Part shown: positions 37,586 through 44,272 of the stretch, one piece after another | How the letters are laid out: each line of letters begins with the position of its first letter | Numbering within the stretch: the stretch's first letter is position 1 | NCBI GenBank assembly: GCA_017444735.1 | Contig: JAFSWB010000075.1 | Location: 1 to 62,857, forward strand | Source of the DNA: Clostridia bacterium | Lineage (GTDB): Bacteria > Bacillota > Clostridia > Oscillospirales > CAG-272 | Direction of reading: 5' to 3' | DNA length: 62,857 bases | Translations under genes and position numbers: made by a program | The notes under the pieces: model-generated | Database searches by the model: none | Seen by the model: the letters and a program-made list of their open reading frames with translations, nothing else | What the model was told of the DNA's origin: nothing

Positions 37586-38026
37586 TTACAGCGTCCGGTA
37601 AAACCCGACCGCTTTCGCGATATCCTTTTCGTCGGGGCGTCCCTTGGCGATCCCTCCGATCTTTCCGAACGGCCCGAAGGTGTCAAAGCCGCGGCAATGG
37701 AAGCTGCCGATCTCCCGGCAGTTCTTTTTGTTTGCGACGGCGCGTATTTTCTTCAGAAAGCCGCCGAACGGCGCGCCGTGCGTGTAAATATAGAACACGT
37801 CCTTGTTTTCGGGCAGGCGCGCTTCGGCAAAGGCGACGAGCTGCTTTGCGAACGAGCTGAAATAGATGCCGGAGGCAAGCCCGATGCGGTCGTACGACGA
37901 AAGATCTGCTTCCGCCTGTTTCGTCACGTCGATCAGCGTCACGGAACCGTCTTCGGCGGCGATCGCGTCAAGCAGTTTTTTCGTGTTGCCGTGGTGTTTG
38001 GAATAATATACGACAGCGGTTCTCAT
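37586..38026 (-). CDS. flavodoxin-family protein
   Basis: 146 aa from MRTAVVYYSKHHGNTKKL. The ORF-track N-terminal extension has no RBS and is low-complexity. Confidence 0.8.
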   Translation of the reverse strand: MRTAVVYYSKHHGNTKKLLDAIAAEDGSVTLIDVTKQAEADLSSYDRIGLASGIYFSSFAKQLVAFAEARLPENKDVFYIYTHGAPFGGFLKKIRAVANKKNCREIGSFHCRGFDTFGPFGKIGGIAKGRPDEKDIAKAVGFYRTL

Positions 38027-38051
38027 TTTTACCTCGCCAAACCGGGTTTTA

Positions 38052-38993
38052 TCACGCTTTGCTGAACTTCTCCTTCGGCTGTTTGCAGCGCGGGCATCTC
38101 CAGTCGTCGGGCAGATCTTCGAAGGCGACGCCGTCGTGTTCGGCGGGGTCGTAAACGTATCCGCAGACCGAGCAGACGTATTTGCCGCTGGCTTTCGCTT
38201 CGGAGAAATCGACTTCGGCAAGAACCGTGGGAACGGGGTGGTCCAGATCCGTCACGCGCTTTGCTTCGAGGTTTTCATATCCCTGCGGCGTATGCGTTCC
38301 GCAGTAGACGGTCGGATTGTTGCGAACGAATTCGCGGACACGGTCGAGCGTTTCACGAGCAGCGGCGAGGTCTTCATAAACGACCGACAGCTTGTTCTCA
38401 TACAGCGCCTCGTCAACGTAGGTGATATCGCCGTGGAGCATATAGAACAGTCCGTCGTTTTCGACGATCACAACGCTGTTGCCGCCCGTGTGTCCCTTTG
38501 CTTTGATATAGTAAACACCGTCCGCGATCTTCTGGCTTGCCGGAAAGTTGTGGTAGGCGCCGTCGGTAAAACTGACGGGGACGATATTGGAAAATCCCTG
38601 CAACTCTGCCGCAGTTGTTTCGTCGGCGTTCACGTAGATCTTTGCGTTCGGGAAGGAACGCAGTTCGCCGGAATGATCAGCATGCTTGTGCGTAAGGAGG
38701 ATCTTCGTAACCTGCTCCGGCTTGTATCCCAAAGCGGCAAACGCCTCCATATAACTGCAGATGTCTTTTCCTGTGTAAAGCGCGCTGTTCTTGTTCGGTA
38801 CCTCTTCGGGTGTTCCGGCAGGAAGGCCGGTATCTACGAGGATAACTTCGTTGCCGGCGTCGATCAGGTAATTCTGCAGACTCCCGCGATAGCGCACAGA
38901 CGGGTCGAATTTGTCCGCGCCTTCCTCACCGCCGAAAACAAATGGCTGAGTATAAAAGCCGTCTTTTCTGAATTTGACTGCTTTGACGATCAT
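38052..38993 (-). CDS. MBL-fold metallo-hydrolase fused to a C-terminal rubredoxin domain
   Basis: THKHADHSG (HxHxDH). C-terminal CSVCGY...CPRC rubredoxin knuckles. Confidence 0.88.
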
Positions 38994-39021
38994 AATCTTT
39001 TCCTCCGTTTTTCTGTGCGTC

Positions 39022-39204
39022 TTATTTCACTGCAGGTTCCCACTTGCAGCGGACGGGAGAGACGATGGAGCCGTCTTTCTTCATGTCAGCCATCGTCTTG
39101 TCCACGGCTTTTCTGTCAAGCCCGGTCAGCTCGGCGATCTTGCCCGCGTTCATCGGCTCTCCGGCTTTCTTCATTGCCTCTAAAATGATTTCCTTTTCGT
39201 TCAT
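39022..39204 (-). CDS. small winged-helix DNA-binding protein
   Basis: 60 aa. [26 protein letters not shown] looks like an HTH. Good RBS. Confidence 0.6.
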
Positions 39205-39233
39205 GGCGTTTTCCTCCTGTATAATATTATTTT

Positions 39234-40373
39234 TTAATCTGCAATATCCACGTCCGGCACGATCAGAACGTCGTATCCCGGATAAAGAGTATTTATCTCG
39301 CCGTACAGCGTTTCTATCGCTTCCTTACGGTCAACGTCAAAGCTGACCACCACGTCGAAACGAATCGTTTTCTTCTCGGTATCGGCGTAGAAACCGTGCA
39401 TCTGAAGCGCCCAGTCGTGAGCCATTACCGTCTTCTGCACCTCGTTGCGCATCCCGGCCGCCTCGTCGTCGGAGGTGTTGTAGGAATAGACGCCGATGCC
39501 CGTCAGGATGATCCCGGTTTTATGAAATACGTCGGTTTGTATTTTTCTTGTGATCCTGTCCACGTCGCCAACGCTGAGATTGTCAGGCAGTTCGATGTGT
39601 ACCGACCCGTAGTTTTTGTTCGGACCGTAGTTGAAAAGCGTTACGTCGTAAGCGCCGAGCACCGCGTCTTCAGCGCAGATGATCTCTTTCAGTTCCTTCG
39701 TCGATTCCGCGTCCTCCCGCTTGCCGATGATATCGTTCAGCGTTTCGATCATCATTTCTATACCGGCTTTGATGATGAAGCCCGCGATGATCACGCCGAC
39801 GTACGCTTCAAGCGAAACGCCCCAGATCAGGTAAACGATCGCCGAAGCGAGGACGGAAGAGGAAAGGATCGCGTCGAACAGCGCGTCCGAACCGGATGCG
39901 ACCAGCGCGCCGGAACTGACCTTTTTTCCCTGTTTTTTTACGAACGTTCCGAGGATCAGTTTCACAGCGATCGCAACGGAAATGATAATAATCGAGACAG
40001 TGCTGTAGTCCGCTGATTCGGGGGCTATGATTTTCTTTACCGACTCCACCAACGACGTGATACCGGCATAAAGGACAAGCGCGGCGACGATCATTGAGCT
40101 GAGATATTCGATCCTGCCGTAACCGAGCGGGTGCTTTTTATCCGGCTGTTTCGCGCCGAGTTTCGCGCCGATGATCGTCACGACGGACGAAAGAGCGTCG
40201 GACAGGTTGTTGACCGCGTCGAGAATGACGGCGATCGAATTGGATACAAGTCCCACGAACGCCTTGAAGCCGACGAGCAGGACGTTTGTGACGATCCCGA
40301 TGATACTTGTTTTTACGATCGCCTTTTCTCTTTGCGCCGTAAGTACCGCGATGTCATCTTTTTGATTATCCAC
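39234..40373 (-). CDS. cation diffusion facilitator (CDF) family transporter
   Basis: 379 aa, GTG start behind AAAGGAGG. SNSIAVILDAVNNLSDA and HPLGYGRIEY motifs, six TM segments, cytoplasmic C-terminal domain. Confidence 0.88.
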   Translation of the reverse strand: MDNQKDDIAVLTAQREKAIVKTSIIGIVTNVLLVGFKAFVGLVSNSIAVILDAVNNLSDALSSVVTIIGAKLGAKQPDKKHPLGYGRIEYLSSMIVAALVLYAGITSLVESVKKIIAPESADYSTVSIIIISVAIAVKLILGTFVKKQGKKVSSGALVASGSDALFDAILSSSVLASAIVYLIWGVSLEAYVGVIIAGFIIKAGIEMMIETLNDIIGKREDAESTKELKEIICAEDAVLGAYDVTLFNYGPNKNYGSVHIELPDNLSVGDVDRITRKIQTDVFHKTGIILTGIGVYSYNTSDDEAAGMRNEVQKTVMAHDWALQMHGFYADTEKKTIRFDVVVSFDVDRKEAIETLYGEINTLYPGYDVLIVPDVDIAD

Positions 40374-40412
40374 AGTTTATCCTCCTTTACAAAACCCGGT
40401 TTGTCCGGTCGT

Positions 40413-40964
40413 TCACAGCGATTCTTCGACCGCGCGACGGACGACCTTCATATCGACGGTCGGCTCGAATCGGGCGACGACCCTGCCTTCGCGATCGATG
40501 AGGAATTTCGTGAAGTTCCAGCCGATATTCGTTTTGTCTCCGAACTTTTTGTTATTCATTTTCGCGAACTTGTTCAGCGCGGCGTTTTTCAGTCCCTTGC
40601 CGAATCCCGCGAACGGCTTTTCGGACGCAAGGAACGCGAACAGCGGATCGGCATTTTCTCCGTTGACGTCGATTTTTGCAAATTGAGGGAACTCCGTTCC
40701 GAATTTCAGCGTGCAGAAATCGTGGATCTCGTCGTCGCTTCCCGGCGCCTGTCCCGCGAACTGATTGGACGGGAAATCGAGGATCTCGAAGCCCCTGTCC
40801 CGCAAATCTTTATACATCGCTTCGAGCGGGTCGTAATGCGGCGTGAAGCCGCAGCCCGTCGCCGTGTTGACGATAAGGAGCACCTTTCCCTTATATTCGG
40901 AAAGATCGACGCCGTTGCCTTTTCTGTCCTTCACGGTGAAATCGTAAACAGTTCTCATTTTCAT
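40413..40964 (-). CDS. glutathione peroxidase family protein
   Basis: NTATGCGFT active-site Cys and FPSNQF motif. The first ATG overlaps the marR stop (ATGA). The second ATG at 40958 is an alternative start. Confidence 0.9.
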   Translation of the reverse strand: MKMRTVYDFTVKDRKGNGVDLSEYKGKVLLIVNTATGCGFTPHYDPLEAMYKDLRDRGFEILDFPSNQFAGQAPGSDDEIHDFCTLKFGTEFPQFAKIDVNGENADPLFAFLASEKPFAGFGKGLKNAALNKFAKMNNKKFGDKTNIGWNFTKFLIDREGRVVARFEPTVDMKVVRRAVEESL

Positions 40965-41413
40965 TTATCCTCCGTTTTTTTCTTTTCTTCATCGAGCAGC
41001 TTATATAGAGTTCTGTACAGTTCGGCCGCTTCGTCCGGCGTCAGATGAAGTTCGTTCGCCATACATCCGGGCACGCCGAGCGCCCTGTCCTGTAGTTCCC
41101 TGCCCGCCTTCGTCAGCGTAATAACAAGATTCCGCCCGTCGCCTTTGTCCTTCGTTTTCTCGATATAACCTTTGTCCCGCAGTTTTTTCAGAAGCGGCGT
41201 CACCGTGTTGGATTTCAGGCAAAGCGTCTCGCAAAGGAGTTTTTCGTTCGCCTGTCCCCGCTCCCACAGAACCATCATCACGACGTACTGCGTGTAGGTC
41301 AGATCGAGTTCGTCGAGAAACGGTTTGTATTTCCGCGTTATCATATTCGATACGGCGTAGATCGGGAAACAAAGCTGATTTTTCAGGCGAAGAGCCTCGT
41401 ATCTGTCGTTCAT
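40961..41413 (-). CDS. MarR-family transcriptional regulator
   Basis: 150 aa winged-helix with a typical MarR layout. First gene of the marR-gpx cluster. Confidence 0.88.
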   Translation of the reverse strand: MNDRYEALRLKNQLCFPIYAVSNMITRKYKPFLDELDLTYTQYVVMMVLWERGQANEKLLCETLCLKSNTVTPLLKKLRDKGYIEKTKDKGDGRNLVITLTKAGRELQDRALGVPGCMANELHLTPDEAAELYRTLYKLLDEEKKKTEDK

Positions 41414-41433
41414 TCCGTTATCACCTCATAATA

Positions 41434-41462
41434 ATTATATCGCACGCGATGTGATTTGTCAA
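41434..41462 (-). promoter_or_regulatory. marR operon promoter with an operator-like palindrome in the spacer
   Basis: Minus strand: TTGACA (41457-41462), 17-nt spacer containing ATCGCgtGCGAT, TATAAT (41434-41439), then the GAGGTGA RBS. Confidence 0.7.
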
Positions 41463-41475
41463 AAAAGGGGGGATG

Positions 41476-41569
41476 ATATGAGAACTCGACCGAAGGTCGA
41501 ATATAACCGCGAAGCGATATCACCCGAACGAAGTTCGGATATAACTCGTTCCGAAGGAACGAATATAAC
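41476..41569 (+). repeat. array of four short hairpins with variable covarying stems, invariant GAA loop and ATAT(A/C)AC spacers
   Basis: TCGACC-GAA-GGTCGA ATATAAC / CGC-GAA-GCG ATATCAC / CCGAAC-GAA-GTTCGG ATATAAC / TCGTTCC-GAA-GGAACGA ATATAAC. Confidence 0.85.
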
Positions 41570-41570
41570 T

Positions 41571-41599
41571 GAAAAAAGCACCCAACGGGTGCTTTTTTC
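41571..41599. terminator. bidirectional terminator-like hairpin
   Basis: GAAAAAAGCACCC-AAC-GGGTGCTTTTTTC. Confidence 0.7.
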
Positions 41600-41602
41600 G
41601 TG

Positions 41603-41624
41603 TGGGCCATCAGGGATCTCGAAC
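41603..41624 (-). pseudogene. orphan fragment identical to the 3' end (T-arm half plus acceptor) of the neighbouring tRNA
   Basis: TGGGCCATCAGGGA(T)CTCGAAC matches 41771..41791 except for one inserted T. No 5' half or cloverleaf can be drawn. Confidence 0.8.
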
Positions 41625-41730
41625 GCATTGCGATTCAATTCAGCGTATATTGAAGATACCGTACGCAACGCATAAAGAATTGCCTGCGGCAATTCTTTAC
41701 CCGAGGGTTCTCGTCACGTTAGTGACGTAC

Positions 41731-41769
41731 ATATGACAAAAGACACCCTATGGGTGTCTTTTGTCATAT
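41731..41769 (-). terminator. tRNA terminator (18-bp perfect stem)
   Basis: ATATGACAAAAGACACCC-TAT-GGGTGTCTTTTGTCATAT, abutting the tRNA 3' end. Confidence 0.8.
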
Positions 41770-41770
41770 G

Positions 41771-41844
41771 TGGGCCATCAGGGACTCGAACCCCGGACCG
41801 TCCGGTTATGAGCCGGATGCTCTAACCAACTGAGCTAATGGCCC
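41771..41844 (-). tRNA. tRNA with anticodon CAT (elongator Met or lysidine-modified Ile2; not an initiator)
   Basis: Cloverleaf drawn by hand: acceptor GGGCCAT/ATGGCCC, D-arm GCTC..GAGC, anticodon stem TCCGG/CCGGA with loop CTCATAA, T-arm CGGGG-TTCGAGT-CCCTG, discriminator A. No encoded CCA. The anticodon stem lacks the three G-C pairs of initiators. Confidence 0.9.
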
Positions 41845-41969
41845 TTGTTCTGCCGACCGATATATTTTATCACGGGGCGGTTTCGTTGTCAATACCTATT
41901 TTCCGGGGGGCGTCGTGAGCCGCTCCTGATCGGAGGGGTCCCCTTCCGGGGACCCCTCCGATCAGACGT

Positions 41970-42869
41970 TCATTCAAGCGGGAAATCGTAACAGTCGTTT
42001 TTTTTCTCCACGATACCGAAGAGCCGCCATCGCGCCGCAGTTTCGGGAGAGAGATCCGCCGGCTCCTTCAGAAAATGACTGACTCCGATCCTGAGGACGG
42101 GCCCGTTGTCCCGGAGATACTGTACGTCCGTTATCTCATACCCCGTTATCCCGTCGCCGTATCGGGCTTCCGACTGCTCGGCGATAAAGGCGCTGATATC
42201 CGCCGCGGAGATATCCGCGATCAGATCCGCGGCGTCAGAGTCCTCGCCGCCTCCTCCGAACACGCAAAGGTTGATCTCTCCGTCGATCATCACGGTCACG
42301 GCGCACGTCGGACCGTATACCGTAAAGTCTTTCGCTTTGTATTCGCGCGCGAGGATGACGTCCCAGTGATATTCGTCCTCCGAGATCGCCTTGATTTCAA
42401 AATCGCGTATGAAATCGCCGTATTCCTCCGCCGCCCGGTCGTACGCAAGATTTATCGCATCCGCGCGGGTCAGCCGTTTTTCGGGGTTTTTCACCGCCTC
42501 CTCAAAGTTTTCGGTCATCGTTATTTTATCCGGGGACGTGAAAATGCGCGAGGCGAACGCGAAGGTCGTGAGGACGACCGCGACGGCGGCGGCGATCAGT
42601 GCGGCGAGCGCGATTTTTCTCCGCCCGGCGGGGGCGCGTCGGAATTCGCCTTTTTTCGCGGCCTCTTCGATCAGCGACCGCTTTAACCCGTCGGGACCGC
42701 GGTACCTCGCGTCGATCGACCGCAAAAGGCTCCCGCATTTTTCGGCAAAACCGGCGCGGCGGTCTTCGGCGCTTTTCGAAAGCTCGCGGCTGACGGCTCC
42801 GACCAGAAGGGCGCGCTCCGCCCGTTTGACCTTTTCTTCAAATTCAACGGCAACAGATGATCGGTTCAT
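41970..42869 (-). CDS. anti-sigma factor-like single-pass membrane protein
   Basis: ATGA overlap with the ECF sigma stop. One TM helix (IALAALIAAAVAVVLTTFAF) and an extracytoplasmic domain. Confidence 0.65.
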   Translation of the reverse strand: MNRSSVAVEFEEKVKRAERALLVGAVSRELSKSAEDRRAGFAEKCGSLLRSIDARYRGPDGLKRSLIEEAAKKGEFRRAPAGRRKIALAALIAAAVAVVLTTFAFASRIFTSPDKITMTENFEEAVKNPEKRLTRADAINLAYDRAAEEYGDFIRDFEIKAISEDEYHWDVILAREYKAKDFTVYGPTCAVTVMIDGEINLCVFGGGGEDSDAADLIADISAADISAFIAEQSEARYGDGITGYEITDVQYLRDNGPVLRIGVSHFLKEPADLSPETAARWRLFGIVEKKNDCYDFPLE

Positions 42870-43408
42870 CGATATTCCTCCTTGCATTTCTCTTTGATCT
42901 TTCGGCGCATACGGAACAGCCTCATTCTGACGCCGTTATACGAAAGGCCGGACGCCTTCATTATTTCGGCGTAGGTCATTTTTTTGCCGTAATAACGGTC
43001 GAAGAGGATCTTTTCTTCGTCGGTAAGCGATTCGACGACGCGGCGTTTCGCTTCTTCGACGGCGGCTTCGTCGGGGATCGCGTCGTCAACGCATATTTCC
43101 CCCGCGCTGAAAACCGGGTCCTCCGGATCGTCGGGATATATGAGGTGATCCTTATCCCGTTTTTGCGCCCGGACGTATTCGTAAAACTTCCGGCGCGCGA
43201 CTCCGAAGAGCCACCTGCCGACGTTTTCCTTTTCGATCCCGTTCCATTTTTTTATCAGGCAGAGAAAGGTCTCCTGCGTTATCTCCTCGGCGGCGTCGTA
43301 AACGTGACCTGTCAGAAACAGCGAAAAGGACCAAACGGCGTCGTAGTACTCTTCGACGGCGGCTTCAAGCTCACGCTCGTTCGCCGCGCCTTTTTCTCTC
43401 GGTTTCAT
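42866..43408 (-). CDS. ECF-type RNA polymerase sigma-70 family factor
   Basis: 180 aa with region 2 and region 4 (MTYAEIMKASGLSYNGVRMRLFRMRRKI). Confidence 0.88.
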   Translation of the reverse strand: MKPREKGAANERELEAAVEEYYDAVWSFSLFLTGHVYDAAEEITQETFLCLIKKWNGIEKENVGRWLFGVARRKFYEYVRAQKRDKDHLIYPDDPEDPVFSAGEICVDDAIPDEAAVEEAKRRVVESLTDEEKILFDRYYGKKMTYAEIMKASGLSYNGVRMRLFRMRRKIKEKCKEEYR

Positions 43409-43579
43409 TTTTCCTCCGAACTTTATTTTGCGGTCTGCGCAGGGTAACTTCTGTTACCGTAAATAAATGACTGAAAAAACGCTCCGTTTCCCGCGTTTTT
43501 CGATATGTTACAAATTATTAACAATCAAGGCCCACCTTTTCGGGGTGAGCCTTGACGGGTTGAGGAATTATTGCGTTTT

Positions 43580-44272
43580 TTACTGATTCGCGATCGTGTC
43601 CATCGTTTCGCCCTCGCCGTGGATCGCTTCAAAGTCCTCCTTGAACGCGTCGACGGCGGAGTCGATACTCGGCAGGGACAGCGCCTTTTTGATGAGCGCG
43701 TAGCTCACCGTCGCGCTGTGCGCGCCGCTTGCGAACGCGGAGACGATCTCGGCGACGTTCTTGAACGAAGCGGCGAGGATCCTCGCGTCCGAACCGGACT
43801 CGTCGATGAAGGAGCGGATCTGCTCGATGACGCGGTCGGCGTCCGTACAGTTGTCCTCCATGCGGTTGTAGTAGATCGCGACGTATTTCGCCCCGGCGAG
43901 GACCGCGAGGATGCCCTGCATCGTCGTGTAGATGCCGGTCGCCGTCACGTTGACGCCCTCTTTCGCGAGCGCCTTGATCGCGGGAAGACCGTTTTCGCTG
44001 ACGGGGATCTTGATGTACGTGTCGTGACCGATGATCGAAGCGATCGTCTTCGCCTCTTTGATTATGTCCTCCGTCGACGACGAAACGACCTGAATGTGAA
44101 GACTTCTTCCGTTCGTGCAGAGACAGCGGATCATCTTGAGCCGCTCGTAAACGTCGATATTTCCCTCTTTTTTGAGTATGCTGGGGTTGGAGGTGACCCC
44201 GCTGACCGGCCACATCGAAAGACCGTATTCGAGTTCCTCGAGATTGGCTGTGTCGAGCATAAGCTCGTTCAT
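43580..44272 (-). CDS. transaldolase / fructose-6-phosphate aldolase family protein
   Basis: MLDTANLEE...GVTSNPSIL, and IKIP with the Schiff-base Lys. Start set to the ATG at 44272 (the ORF-track start is a TTG). Confidence 0.88.
   Translation of the reverse strand: MNELMLDTANLEELEYGLSMWPVSGVTSNPSILKKEGNIDVYERLKMIRCLCTNGRSLHIQVVSSSTEDIIKEAKTIASIIGHDTYIKIPVSENGLPAIKALAKEGVNVTATGIYTTMQGILAVLAGAKYVAIYYNRMEDNCTDADRVIEQIRSFIDESGSDARILAASFKNVAEIVSAFASGAHSATVSYALIKKALSLPSIDSAVDAFKEDFEAIHGEGETMDTIANQ

What the first reader, a model, noticed from the sequence alone, without database searches (positions are those of the whole stretch)
41476..41569. Four tandem hairpins with covarying stems, invariant GAA triloop and invariant ATATAAC spacer
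The four consecutive units are:
- TCGACC-GAA-GGTCGA then ATATAAC
- CGC-GAA-GCG then ATATCAC
- CCGAAC-GAA-GTTCGG then ATATAAC
- TCGTTCC-GAA-GGAACGA then ATATAAC
The stems share no sequence, yet each is perfectly self-complementary. The 3-nt loop and the 7-nt spacer are fixed. That is the signature of selection on structure rather than of a duplicated sequence repeat. The array lies in non-coding DNA between the divergent marR promoter and a terminator hairpin, next to a tRNA gene. It could be a multi-hairpin RNA that presents repeated loops or spacers to a binding protein (sponge-like), or a set of DNA cruciform/iteron sites. I do not recognise it as a known RNA family.
Basis: seen in the sequence. 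Interest (0 to 1): 0.62.

Follow-up and report, generated by a model that had tools for sequence, protein, structure and literature searches.

The report
Truncated copy of Gut-1 hairpin repeat
The four hairpins are real, but they are a cut-off copy of a repeated, terminator-associated hairpin element of gut Clostridia that Rfam already lists as the "Gut-1 RNA" of unknown function, inserted behind a tRNA terminator and not a dedicated part of the marR gene.

Summary
Window 41486-41562 holds four perfect hairpins with C-GAA-G loops, separated by ATATAAC/ATATCAC, and this is far beyond chance.

It is not an unknown family. The minus strand matches Rfam Gut-1 (RF01706) at 44.7 bits. That is below the gathering score of 50, with E=1.5e-5 for the whole window. 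Relatives in gut Clostridia MAGs pass the threshold.

Full elements have this layout: a hairpin or terminator (P0), an "A" array, a centre, and an inverted "B" array. The window holds only a truncated A array, placed directly behind the T-run of the tRNA-Met terminator. A sister contig carries the full element. Four marR orthologue loci lack the array altogether.

Across 55 full elements:
- Stems are about 99% Watson-Crick, with no G·U excess on either strand.
- Loops are C(GNA)G or C(GNNA)G on the ATATCAC strand in both arms.
- The P0 side abuts the 3' end of a co-oriented gene in 41 of 47 cases; 13 of those are tRNA genes.
- Neighbouring protein genes are otherwise unrelated.

Some copies sit inside terminator loops and carry an Avd-like four-helix-bundle gene.

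Best reading: a dispersed, probably mobile, element read as single-stranded DNA. RNA roles are not excluded.

The parts
41486..41500 (+). Hairpin unit TCGACC-GAA-GGTCGA. It is hp4 of the A arm when read on the - strand.
   Evidence: It contains CCGAAGG, a d(C-GAA-G) mini-hairpin core.
41508..41516 (+). Hairpin unit CGC-GAA-GCG (hp3). It contains GCGAAGC.
41524..41538 (+). Hairpin unit CCGAAC-GAA-GTTCGG (hp2).
41546..41562 (+). Hairpin unit TCGTTCC-GAA-GGAACGA (hp1). In the full element L001 its - strand left arm, together with the adjacent heptamer, is the left terminal inverted repeat.
41501..41569 (+). The four heptamer linkers: ATATAAC (41501-07), ATATCAC (41517-23), ATATAAC (41539-45) and ATATAAC (41563-69). 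On the - strand they read GTTATAT / GTGATAT.
   Evidence: This is the family-wide heptamer.
41496..41571 (-). Match to Rfam RF01706 (Gut-1 RNA) at 44.7 bits, against a gathering score of 50.
   Evidence: E=1.6e-7 for the local region; E=1.5e-5 for the whole window; the only hit besides the tRNA.
41476..41485 (+). Breakpoint of the truncated copy. After ...GGTCGAGTT (- strand) the window continues CTCATAT..., whereas the full element continues AAGGAACGAATATAATATAAC (centre plus B arm).
   Evidence: window compared with L001.
41571..41599 (.). Bidirectional intrinsic terminator T2 (A6-GCACCC-loop-GGGTGC-T6). It is the native tRNA-Met terminator. The array starts directly after its T-run on the - strand (TTTTTT-CA-GTTATAT).
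   Evidence: The same terminator follows tRNA-Met in L325, which has no array.
41434..41462 (-). marR promoter, TTGACA-17-TATAAT, with an ATCGC-GT-GCGAT palindrome between the two boxes (probable MarR operator).
   Evidence: The promoter and palindrome are conserved in orthologues that lack the array.
41770..41844 (-). tRNA-Met (CAT). It is the co-oriented gene on the P0 side of the array.

Best explanation
The array is a truncated copy (A arm only, about 41481-41571) of the Gut-1 element. This is a dispersed, terminator-associated palindromic repeat found mainly in gut Clostridia MAGs (Oscillospiraceae, Acutalibacteraceae, Ruminococcus, Christensenellaceae and others).

**Shown.**
- A full element runs: [hairpin or terminator P0] - A arm - centre - B arm.
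- The A arm is about 100 nt. It has 3-4 hairpins separated by GTGATAT or GTTATAT and is bounded by 10-13-nt inverted repeats.
- The B arm has 3 hairpins separated by ATATCAC, in inverted module orientation relative to the A arm.
- The window copy was placed immediately behind the T-run of the tRNA-Met terminator.
- It is absent from orthologous marR loci.
- A sister contig has the complete element plus a second, 100% identical A arm.

**Inferred mechanism.**
- The working unit is the module 5'-ATATCAC + perfect stem + G..A loop. It acts as a folded single strand of DNA, not as a classical RNA.
- Stems are kept strictly Watson-Crick on both strands. Loops are the C(GNA)G and C(GNNA)G types that make exceptionally stable DNA mini-hairpins.
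- Arrays of such modules, in opposite orientation on the two arms, most likely serve as recognition or landing sites for a DNA-processing machinery (recombination, transposition or priming).
- That machinery would spread or maintain the element at terminators, much as REP/BIME elements work with their transposases.

**For this window.** The truncated copy probably has no dedicated role for marR. At most it adds hairpins between the tRNA terminator and the marR promoter.
For: **Family membership.**
- Gut-1 hit at 44.7 bits; it is the only non-tRNA hit in the whole window.
- In 8 of 19 related loci scanned, an A arm scores 54-60 bits, above the gathering score (one B arm also passes, at 52 bits).
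- The published Gut-1 alignment shows the same layout: tRNA, terminator, CAGUUAUAU, hairpins, then an inverted array (PMC2864571 supplementary file 95).

**Distribution.**
- 55 of these parsed as full elements.

**Insertion and polymorphism.**
- L001 is the same locus with 237 extra bp. It holds a full element and two identical 94-nt A arms behind different terminators.
- marR orthologues at 82-90% identity have the same promoter but no array. L325 keeps tRNA-Met plus the T2 terminator without an array.

**DNA-like signature.**
- A-arm stems: 269 Watson-Crick, 2 G·U, 5 A·C pairs.
- B-arm stems: 663 Watson-Crick, 6 G·U, 5 A·C pairs.
- Loops are GAA, GCA, GTA, GTAA, GCAA, GAAA and also GATA, GACA, GTTA, GTCA. 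All are closed by C-G, and all lie on the ATATCAC strand in both arms.
- GCGNAGC and GCGNNAGC mini-hairpin DNA is extraordinarily stable, binds SSB poorly, and occurs at ssDNA priming sites, including the CCGAAGG of RSF1010 ssiA (PMC13037366; PMC3201870).

**Terminal inverted repeats.** The A arm has them in 53 of 55 elements, and they covary.

**Terminator association.**
- The gene on the P0 side is co-oriented in 41 of 47 cases; 13 of those are tRNA genes.
- The gene on the other side is co-oriented in 25 cases and convergent in 19.
- Almost no elements lie in divergent intergenic regions.
- No neighbouring protein family recurs in more than 4 of the 55 loci.

**Mobility.** Near-identical composite copies sit inside the loops of five unrelated host terminators.
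Against: - No enzyme that would act on the modules has been identified, and no target-site duplication was defined.
- Copy number per genome was not measured.
- The fixed polarity relative to the upstream gene would also fit a transcript-level role as a 3' UTR or terminator.
- In phage L126 the arrays sit between co-directional structural genes (portal, Prp peptidase, internal virion protein), so they are probably transcribed.
- The discoverers rated Gut-1 as certainly an RNA on the basis of covariation.
- Array-like sequence is abundant in metatranscriptome assemblies. Runs of unknown type show a similar profile, and contigs carry no strand.
- The absence of G·U pairs could instead reflect a need for maximal stability in very short stems.
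- My internal control using terminator hairpins was too noisy to calibrate the G·U expectation.
Confidence: 0.5

Rival explanations
1. The element is a structured RNA on the Gut-1 (window minus) strand. It is co-transcribed as the 3' trailer or 3' UTR of the upstream gene or tRNA. The tandem stable hairpins block 3' exonucleases or reinforce termination, and the GUGAUAU linkers bind a protein.
For: - Rfam and the discoverers model this strand.
- A-U and U·G pairs can close each A-arm stem only on this strand.
- The element follows a co-oriented gene in 41 of 47 cases.
- Many P0 hairpins lack a T-run, so read-through is likely there.
- In phage L126 the arrays lie between co-directional structural genes.
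- One metatranscriptome contig spans tRNA, terminator and the start of the array (X29 record 26).
Against: - In the window the array lies behind a strong terminator with a 6-T run and upstream of the marR transcription start.
- Stems show no G·U excess over A·C: 8 against 10 on this strand.
- On this strand the A-arm loops are UUC, UAC and UUU, which are not known stabilising RNA loops. The B arm would be the antisense version of the same module.
- F and R heptamers do not covary. In L216 and L312 all F are GTTATAT and all R are ATATCAC, so long-range linker pairing is not supported.
- A generic hairpin barrier does not explain the invariant heptamers or the strand-specific loops.
Confidence: 0.2
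2. A small RNA is made from the + (module) strand, consisting of four C-GAA-G hairpins and AUAUAAC linkers, and is ended by the terminator at 41571-41599. It acts as a multi-site binder (sponge). In full elements two such RNAs would be transcribed divergently from the centre.
For: - On the module strand every array runs into a bidirectional terminator: P0 for the A arm, and a terminator 20-90 nt beyond the B arm.
- Loops on this strand are G..A, many of them GNRA.
- Read from the sequence: the centre carries TANAAT on one strand and TG-N-TATTNT, which resembles an extended -10, on the other.
- The window has TGATATGAG just upstream of the first hairpin.
Against: - The scan found no -35/-10 promoter on the + strand.
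- The window's extended -10-like hexamer, TATGAG, lacks the conserved final T.
- P0 has no T-run on this strand in many family members.
- There is no G·U excess on this strand either: 11 G·U against 7 A·C.
- Triloops and non-GNRA GNNA loops are unusual for a selected RNA.
- No strand-resolved RNA data could be obtained.
Confidence: 0.12
3. The heptamers are double-stranded DNA binding sites for a repressor, a centromere-binding protein or an integrase arm-binding domain, and the palindromes are only spacers. Examples would be omega-type ribbon-helix-helix proteins that bind WATCACW heptads, or MarR.
For: - Heptamers occur in direct and inverted arrays, like arm-type sites or heptad operators.
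- Read in register, TATCACA fits the omega heptad WATCACW (my own knowledge, untested here).
- Arrays often abut a -35 box.
- The locus is next to a tRNA gene with a duplicated 3' end.
Against: - Spacing between heptamers varies from 9 to 21 bp, so there is no helical phasing.
- A dsDNA model gives no reason for the spacers to be perfect, covarying palindromes with strand-biased loops.
- marR orthologues keep their operator without the array.
- No integrase or partition gene recurs nearby.
Confidence: 0.08

Closest known systems
Gut-1 RNA motif (Rfam RF01706; Weinberg et al. 2010, PMC2864571)
   Same: - Tandem short hairpins separated by a conserved heptamer (GUGAAAU or GUGAUAU).
- Found in gut bacteria.
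- Frequently placed behind a tRNA gene and its terminator.
- An inverted second array is visible in the flanks of the published alignment.
- Relatives of the window copy score above the family threshold.
   Different: - The window copy scores 44.7 bits, below the threshold of 50.
- It mostly uses GUUAUAU and has unusual stems.
- It is truncated: it lacks the centre and the B arm.
- The published description says only that the motif is found in human gut sequences and is probably a non-coding RNA. The two-arm architecture, terminator association, DNA-like statistics and composite cassettes are not described in the only paper the library search found to mention the motif.
REP / BIME / REPIN elements and their RAYT transposases (PMC3116915, PMC3337134, PMC3733652)
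   Same: - Short extragenic palindromes at the 3' ends of genes.
- Clustered in alternating orientation.
- Mosaic and polymorphic.
- A short conserved tag sits next to each hairpin.
- Thought to be handled as single-stranded DNA hairpins.
   Different: - The tag is ATATCAC, not GTAG or CGTC.
- Each hairpin in an array has a different stem, whereas REPs repeat one consensus palindrome.
- No RAYT-like gene was found or looked for genome-wide.
- Copy number per genome is unknown.
Mini-hairpin DNA d(GCGNAGC) / d(GCGNNAGC) at ssDNA priming sites: phage G4 origin and RSF1010 ssiA CCGAAGG (PMC13037366, PMC3201870)
   Same: - Loops are C-GNA-G or C-GNNA-G.
- Two window units contain CCGAAGG and one contains GCGAAGC.
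- Such hairpins resist SSB and mark sites read by primases.
   Different: - Those sites are single hairpins in replicon origins.
- Here, arrays of 3-4 hairpins with heptamer linkers are scattered behind chromosomal genes.
- No primase link was tested.
Diversity-generating retroelement accessory protein Avd, and 23S rRNA intervening sequences that encode PF05635 proteins (PMC10053308)
   Same: - A PF05635 (Avd-like) gene starts within about 70 nt of the B arm in 6 of the 120 scanned loci, one of them a truncated pseudogene, and in 4 further contexts fetched through the protein.
- Those cassettes sit inside hairpin loops, as rRNA intervening sequences do.
- DGR homing needs a DNA hairpin with a 4-nt loop (my own knowledge).
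   Different: - The four cassettes whose called genes carry Pfam assignments (L338, L341-L343) hold no reverse transcriptase; template/variable repeats were not searched for.
- Most Gut-1 elements, and the window, have no PF05635 gene.
CsrB/RsmZ-type sponge sRNAs
   Same: Repeated hairpins with varying stems and a fixed short motif.
   Different: - The defining GGA loop motif is absent.
- No promoter was found.
- No RNA evidence was obtained.

Membership tests
Rfam Gut-1 (RF01706) | Covariance-model score at or above the curated gathering score (50 bits). | tested here: not met
   The window scores 44.7 bits, with E=1.5e-5 over the whole window. Homologous A arms in L209, L215, L219, L220, L237, L265, L284 and L321 score 54-60 bits. 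The window copy is therefore a divergent relative.
Rfam Gut-1 (RF01706) | Three or more tandem hairpins whose stems close with A-U and U·G pairs, separated by 3-nt linkers (the heptamer GUGAWAU). | tested here: met
   The - strand fold shows four hairpins with these closing pairs. The cmscan alignment covers model positions 1-77. The linker variant is UAU or GAU.
Rfam Gut-1 (RF01706) | Occurrence in gut-associated bacteria. | tested here: met
   Homologous arrays come from gut or rumen Clostridia MAGs. The window's MarR relatives are named Clostridia MAG proteins.
Rfam Gut-1 (RF01706) | Expressed as a non-coding RNA. | tested here: inconclusive
   Only unstranded contigs of metatranscriptomes were available. 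Array depth is high, but runs of unknown type show a similar profile. No run holds the window locus itself.
REP/BIME (REPIN) elements | Many copies per genome, in extragenic positions at gene 3' ends. | tested here: inconclusive
   Extragenic position at 3' ends is met in 41 of 47 cases. Several MAGs and several 8-kb loci carry 2 or more copies. Hundreds of distinct contigs per gut run carry array-like sequence. No complete genome was counted, and the 62.8-kb window has one copy.
REP/BIME (REPIN) elements | One consensus palindrome with a GTAG or CGTC tag, repeated in inverted pairs. | tested here: not met
   The tag is ATATCAC or ATATAAC. Stems differ between units. The inverted arrangement of the two arms is present in full elements.
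REP/BIME (REPIN) elements | A cognate RAYT (Y1 HUH transposase) in the genome. | not tested
   Whole genomes of carriers could not be searched. No recurrent neighbouring protein family was seen.
MITE (miniature inverted-repeat transposable element) | Terminal inverted repeats. | tested here: inconclusive
   The A arm of full elements has perfect 8-15-nt inverted repeats (TTATATTCGCC...GGCGAATATAA) in 53 of 55 cases, and they covary. The window copy lacks the right-hand repeat.
MITE (miniature inverted-repeat transposable element) | Filled and empty sites, and a target-site duplication. | tested here: inconclusive
   Empty sites exist at marR orthologue loci, and the same cassette is found in five unrelated terminators. 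No consistent duplication was identified.
Plasmid or phage iterons | Direct repeats of constant length and sequence, next to an initiator gene. | tested here: not met
   Units are 22, 16, 22 and 24 nt and share only 7 nt. The neighbours are marR, a peroxidase gene, an efflux gene and sigma / anti-sigma genes.
CsrA/RsmA-sponge sRNA | GGA motifs presented in hairpin loops, with the sRNA's own promoter and terminator. | tested here: not met
   All loops are GAA. No + strand promoter was found. A terminator is present.
Integron attC sites | RYYYAAC...GTTRRRY cores flanking an imperfect palindrome with extrahelical bases, separating gene cassettes. | tested here: not met
   The heptamers fit only 6 of 7 positions, and the commonest form (GTGATAT) lacks the GTT. 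Stems are perfect, and there are no cassettes between units.

The most novel reading that the evidence does not exclude
Gut-1 "RNAs" are not RNAs. They would be the single-stranded-DNA recognition arrays of a previously undescribed class of mobile cassettes in gut Clostridia.

- These cassettes insert into or behind intrinsic-terminator hairpins, with a preference for tRNA genes.
- Their fullest forms carry, in order: a promoter, an Avd-like four-helix-bundle protein, a conserved ~58-nt module, a variable small cargo gene and a conserved terminator.
- The Avd-like oligomer, or a partner enzyme, would read the 3-4 ATATCAC + mini-hairpin modules.
- The window holds a dead-end fragment of such an element.
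Probability: 0.22. Interest if true: 0.8.

Novelty: new member of a known kind. Interest (0 to 1): 0.5.

Why it matters
For this window the result is a plain annotation. The array is a fragment of a repeat inserted between the tRNA-Met terminator and the marR promoter. It should not be read as a marR regulatory RNA.

For the family it matters more.
- Gut-1 has been listed since 2010 as an orphan sRNA with no cultivated host and no function.
- The comparisons here give it an anatomy: two inverted arms, terminal repeats and oriented modules.
- They also give it a genomic habit: it sits at terminators and tRNA 3' ends, and sometimes inside terminator loops.
- A statistical signature (no G·U pairs, G..A mini-hairpin loops) points to single-stranded DNA.
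- A candidate partner protein emerges, the PF05635 Avd-like four-helix bundle.

Together these turn an unexplained motif into concrete experiments.

Tried and rejected
- **Coding reading.** The 74-aa + strand ORF at 41451-41675 runs through all four hairpins and the terminator. Rejected.
- **MarR operator array.** Orthologues keep the promoter and palindrome without the array. Rejected.
- **Long-range pairing of GTGATAT linkers with ATATCAC linkers.** There is no covariation. In L216 and L312 all F are GTTATAT and all R are ATATCAC. Rejected. In contrast, pairing of the A arm's 5' start with the centre is supported.
- **Promoter on the + strand.** The consensus scan found none.
- **Viral collection scans with two heptamer patterns.** Results were dominated by AT-rich tandem repeats of giant viruses. 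Only L055 and L126 were genuine.
- **BLAST of a full element.** One unannotated gut phage record matched; no plasmid did.
- **Neighbouring genes.** No recurrent family was found.
- **G·U calibration on predicted terminators.** Too noisy to use.
- **RNA evidence.**
  - No run holds the window locus.
  - Metatranscriptome contigs show high depth over arrays, but they are unstranded and confounded by copy number.
  - No raw-read runs were offered.
- **MAFFT alignment of A arms.** It misaligned the window and L001 rows, so pair statistics were computed from a direct parse instead.
- **Rfam scan of the composite cassette.** Nothing matched beyond Gut-1.
- **Iterons, attC sites and CsrA sponge.** See the membership tests.
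Full report
**Observation.**

The + strand of window 41486-41562 holds four perfect hairpins. Their stems are 6, 3, 6 and 7 bp, and every loop is GAA closed by C-G. They are separated and followed by ATATAAC, ATATCAC, ATATAAC and ATATAAC.

Folding either strand, as RNA or as DNA, returns exactly these hairpins. The z-scores range from -4.1 to -6.9, and no shuffle folded as well.

Heptamer pairs at this spacing occur three times in the window, all of them here, and never in 100 shuffles.

**Context**. All neighbouring genes lie on the minus strand. In order along that strand they are:
- an ECF sigma factor and a 305-aa protein;
- tRNA-Met (41770-41844), with its own promoter;
- a terminator T1;
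- about 130 nt ending in a second copy of the tRNA 3' end (41601-41624);
- a bidirectional terminator T2 (41571-41599);
- the array;
- a perfect TTGACA-17-TATAAT promoter (41462-41434);
- marR, then a glutathione peroxidase gene and a cation-efflux gene.

On the minus strand, therefore, the array lies behind a terminator and ahead of the marR transcription start. On the plus strand it runs into T2, but the scan found no -35/-10 promoter in front of it.

**Identity.**

An Rfam scan gives one hit besides the tRNA. It is Gut-1 (RF01706), on the minus strand at 41496-41571, at 44.7 bits against a gathering score of 50. The E-value is 1.5e-5 for the whole window against all families.

Gut-1 was reported in 2010 as a probable non-coding RNA known only from human gut metagenomes. 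Nothing further was said about it there. The library search found no other paper that mentions it.

The deposited alignment already shows members with a tRNA 3' end, a terminator, "CAGUUAUAU", then hairpins separated by GUGAUAU. An array of AUAUCAC-separated hairpins follows a few nucleotides later.

**The locus is polymorphic.**

A 111.8-kb contig encodes the identical MarR (L001) and is identical to the window here except for 237 extra bases. In L001 the order is:
- T2;
- an A array;
- a centre, GTTAAGGAACGAATATA;
- three hairpins separated by ATATAAC/ATATCAC (the B array);
- 27 nt;
- a different terminator, T3;
- a second A array, 100% identical to the first over 94 nt.

The window has a single A array that breaks off after GGTCGAGTT. 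It is therefore a truncated element, produced either by deletion between the two A copies or by assembly collapse.

Four loci with marR orthologues of 82-90% identity keep the promoter and its internal palindrome but have no array. One of them (L325) keeps tRNA-Met followed directly by a T2-like terminator. The array is thus an insertion placed exactly after the T-run of the native tRNA terminator. It is not part of marR regulation.

**The family.**

Almost all were from gut or rumen Clostridia MAGs: Oscillospiraceae, Acutalibacteraceae, Ruminococcus, Christensenellaceae and a few Lachnospiraceae.

Parsing gave 55 full elements with one architecture:
- a hairpin P0, often a bidirectional terminator;
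- (C)AG;
- an A arm of about 100 nt. Its consensus is GTTATAT-TCGCC..GGCGA-GTGATAT-TGC..GCA-GTGATAT-TCGGC..GCCGA-GTGATAT-TCGC..GCGA-GTTnnnnGGCGAATATA;
- a B arm, ATATCAC-hairpin repeated three times, then ATATCAC.

In 8 of 19 related loci scanned, an A arm passes the Rfam threshold.

The first 10-13 nt of the A arm and the centre are perfect inverted repeats in most elements (at least 8 nt in 53 of 55). They covary: TTATAT pairs with ATATAA, TTTTAT with ATAAAA, and TTCTAT with ATAGAA.

The forward and reverse heptamers do not covary with each other.

**Where the elements sit.**

The gene on the P0 side is co-oriented with the element in 41 of 47 cases and usually ends 10-30 nt before P0. Thirteen of these genes are tRNA genes, of many anticodons.

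The gene on the other side is co-oriented in 25 cases and convergent in 19. Divergent intergenic regions are almost never used.

No protein family recurs next to the elements in more than 4 of the 55 loci. The B arm often abuts a -35 box, just as the window fragment lies about 20 nt from the marR -35.

Elements also occur in two viral contigs:
- In a phage with a P22-like portal, arrays lie between portal, Prp peptidase and internal virion protein genes (L126).
- In L055, an element lies between a host ORF and phage head genes; the gene functions there were read from the translations and not searched.

**RNA or DNA?**

Among 165 distinct hairpins, 932 pairs are Watson-Crick, 8 are G·U and 10 are A·C on the Gut-1 strand. 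Counted on the module strand, that is 11 G·U against 7 A·C. Each position carries 16-26 different arm sequences, each with its exact complement.

So pairing is maintained. The G·U intermediates expected of an RNA selected on one strand are missing, and neither strand is favoured.

The loops, in contrast, are strand-biased. On the strand where the heptamer reads ATATCAC, the loops are C(GAA)G, C(GCA)G, C(GTA)G, C(GTAA)G, C(GCAA)G and C(GAAA)G. They also include C(GATA)G, C(GACA)G, C(GTTA)G and C(GTCA)G. This holds in both arms: on the reverse strand for A and on the forward strand for B.

The basic unit is therefore an oriented module, ATATCAC + stem + G..A loop, and the two arms point away from the centre.

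C-GNA-G and C-GNNA-G are the loops of "mini-hairpin DNA". Such hairpins are exceptionally stable, bind SSB poorly, and are known at single-strand priming sites, including the CCGAAGG of RSF1010 ssiA (PMC13037366; PMC3201870). Two of the window's units contain CCGAAGG and one contains GCGAAGC.

I take this as the best available evidence that the modules work as folded single-stranded DNA. It is an inference. My attempt to calibrate G·U frequency on predicted terminators failed.

No strand-resolved RNA data were available. Metatranscriptome contigs show depths of hundreds to thousands over A arms, against about 5 on the flanks. Runs of unknown type give a similar profile, and hundreds of paralogous contigs contribute.

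**Mobility and larger forms.**

Sub-families of elements in unrelated flanks are alike from just before P0, through A, centre and B, and for a further 60-170 nt.

In several copies the host flanks form an A-run + stem ... stem + T-run that differs from copy to copy. The element therefore sits in the loop of a bidirectional terminator.

In 6 of the 120 scanned loci, a PF05635 gene starts within about 70 nt of the B arm; one of them is a truncated pseudogene. PF05635 is the "23S rRNA-intervening-sequence protein", a four-helix bundle that resembles DGR Avd (PMC10053308).

This protein has thousands of relatives in metagenomes; the 120 best listed are all at least 91% identical to it.

The same cassette occurs in five unrelated contexts: after a GH31 gene, between rpoC and rpsL, after a phoU-like gene, after a dehydrogenase gene, and in L305. 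Its order is:
- left terminator arm;
- P0, A arm, centre, B arm;
- a TTGACTT-17-TATAAT promoter;
- the four-helix-bundle gene;
- a conserved ~58-nt module;
- a variable small ORF;
- a conserved CCCCGACAGA..TCTGTCGGGG terminator;
- a conserved right end;
- right terminator arm.

The gene-less elements look like internally deleted derivatives. Contigs that join the modules directly exist (joints). The window has no such gene.

**Verdict.**

The finding is real, but it is a truncated, divergent copy of a known though functionally unexplained family. The claims that the family is unknown and that the array is linked to marR do not hold.

The most likely mechanism for the family is a dispersed, terminator-seeking element whose hairpin modules are read as single-stranded DNA (confidence about 0.5). 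The rivals are:
- a co-transcribed 3' RNA element on the Gut-1 strand (0.2);
- duplex protein-binding sites (0.08).

The window copy itself is probably inert.

Noticed in passing
window 41601-41770: The last ~24 nt of tRNA-Met are duplicated: 41601-41624 (TGTGGGCCATCAGGGATCTCGAAC) against 41769-41792. Between the two copies lie a separate terminator (T1, ~41730-41770) and two further hairpins. In L325 the tRNA is followed directly by the T2-like terminator. This looks like the scar of an insertion into the tRNA 3' end.
   Followed up: partly
window 41434-41462 (- strand): A perfect sigma-70-type marR promoter has a palindrome, ATCGC-GT-GCGAT, between the -35 and -10 boxes. It is conserved almost letter for letter in marR orthologues (L322, L323, L325, L327) and is probably the MarR autoregulatory operator.
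   Followed up: partly
L001 2597-2925 (same locus as window 41476-41600): A sister contig with the identical MarR has 237 extra bp. These comprise a complete two-arm element, a different terminator, and a second, 100% identical A arm. This is either a real polymorphism or a repeat collapse in one assembly.
   Followed up: yes
L305 2340-3620; L338, L341, L342, L343: A 1.1-1.5-kb cassette sits inside the loops of unrelated host terminators. Its order is: Gut-1 arms, promoter, PF05635 four-helix-bundle gene, conserved 58-nt module, variable small ORF, conserved terminator, conserved right end. The cargo ORFs differ between copies.
   Followed up: partly
L305 2964-3021: A ~58-nt module (GGGGTATGGGCTTTGCCC..GCATTTGTAATACAAAGGCGAAACTGGCGATAAA) has sharp boundaries. 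In gut metatranscriptome contigs its depth equals or exceeds that of the Gut-1 A arm. It matches no Rfam family.
   Followed up: partly
L126 3790-3890 and 4290-4375: Two one-armed arrays lie in a phage contig, in the intergenic regions between the P22-like portal, Prp peptidase and internal virion protein genes. Their polarity matches that of the genes.
   Followed up: partly
window 38000-44000: G+C content drops to 51-57% here, against 59-65% in the rest of the window beyond about 4 kb (49-51% in the first 4 kb). The region holds the marR, peroxidase, efflux, rubredoxin-MBL, tRNA and sigma/anti-sigma genes.
   Followed up: no
L298 4023-4092 and 5396-5465; L311 1962-2187: One-armed arrays are duplicated together with their preceding terminator, which in L298 follows a sequence resembling a tRNA 3' end (not checked with ARAGORN). 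In L311 they occur in tandem, with a tail GTTATGGAATATTCC. These suggest further sub-families.
   Followed up: no
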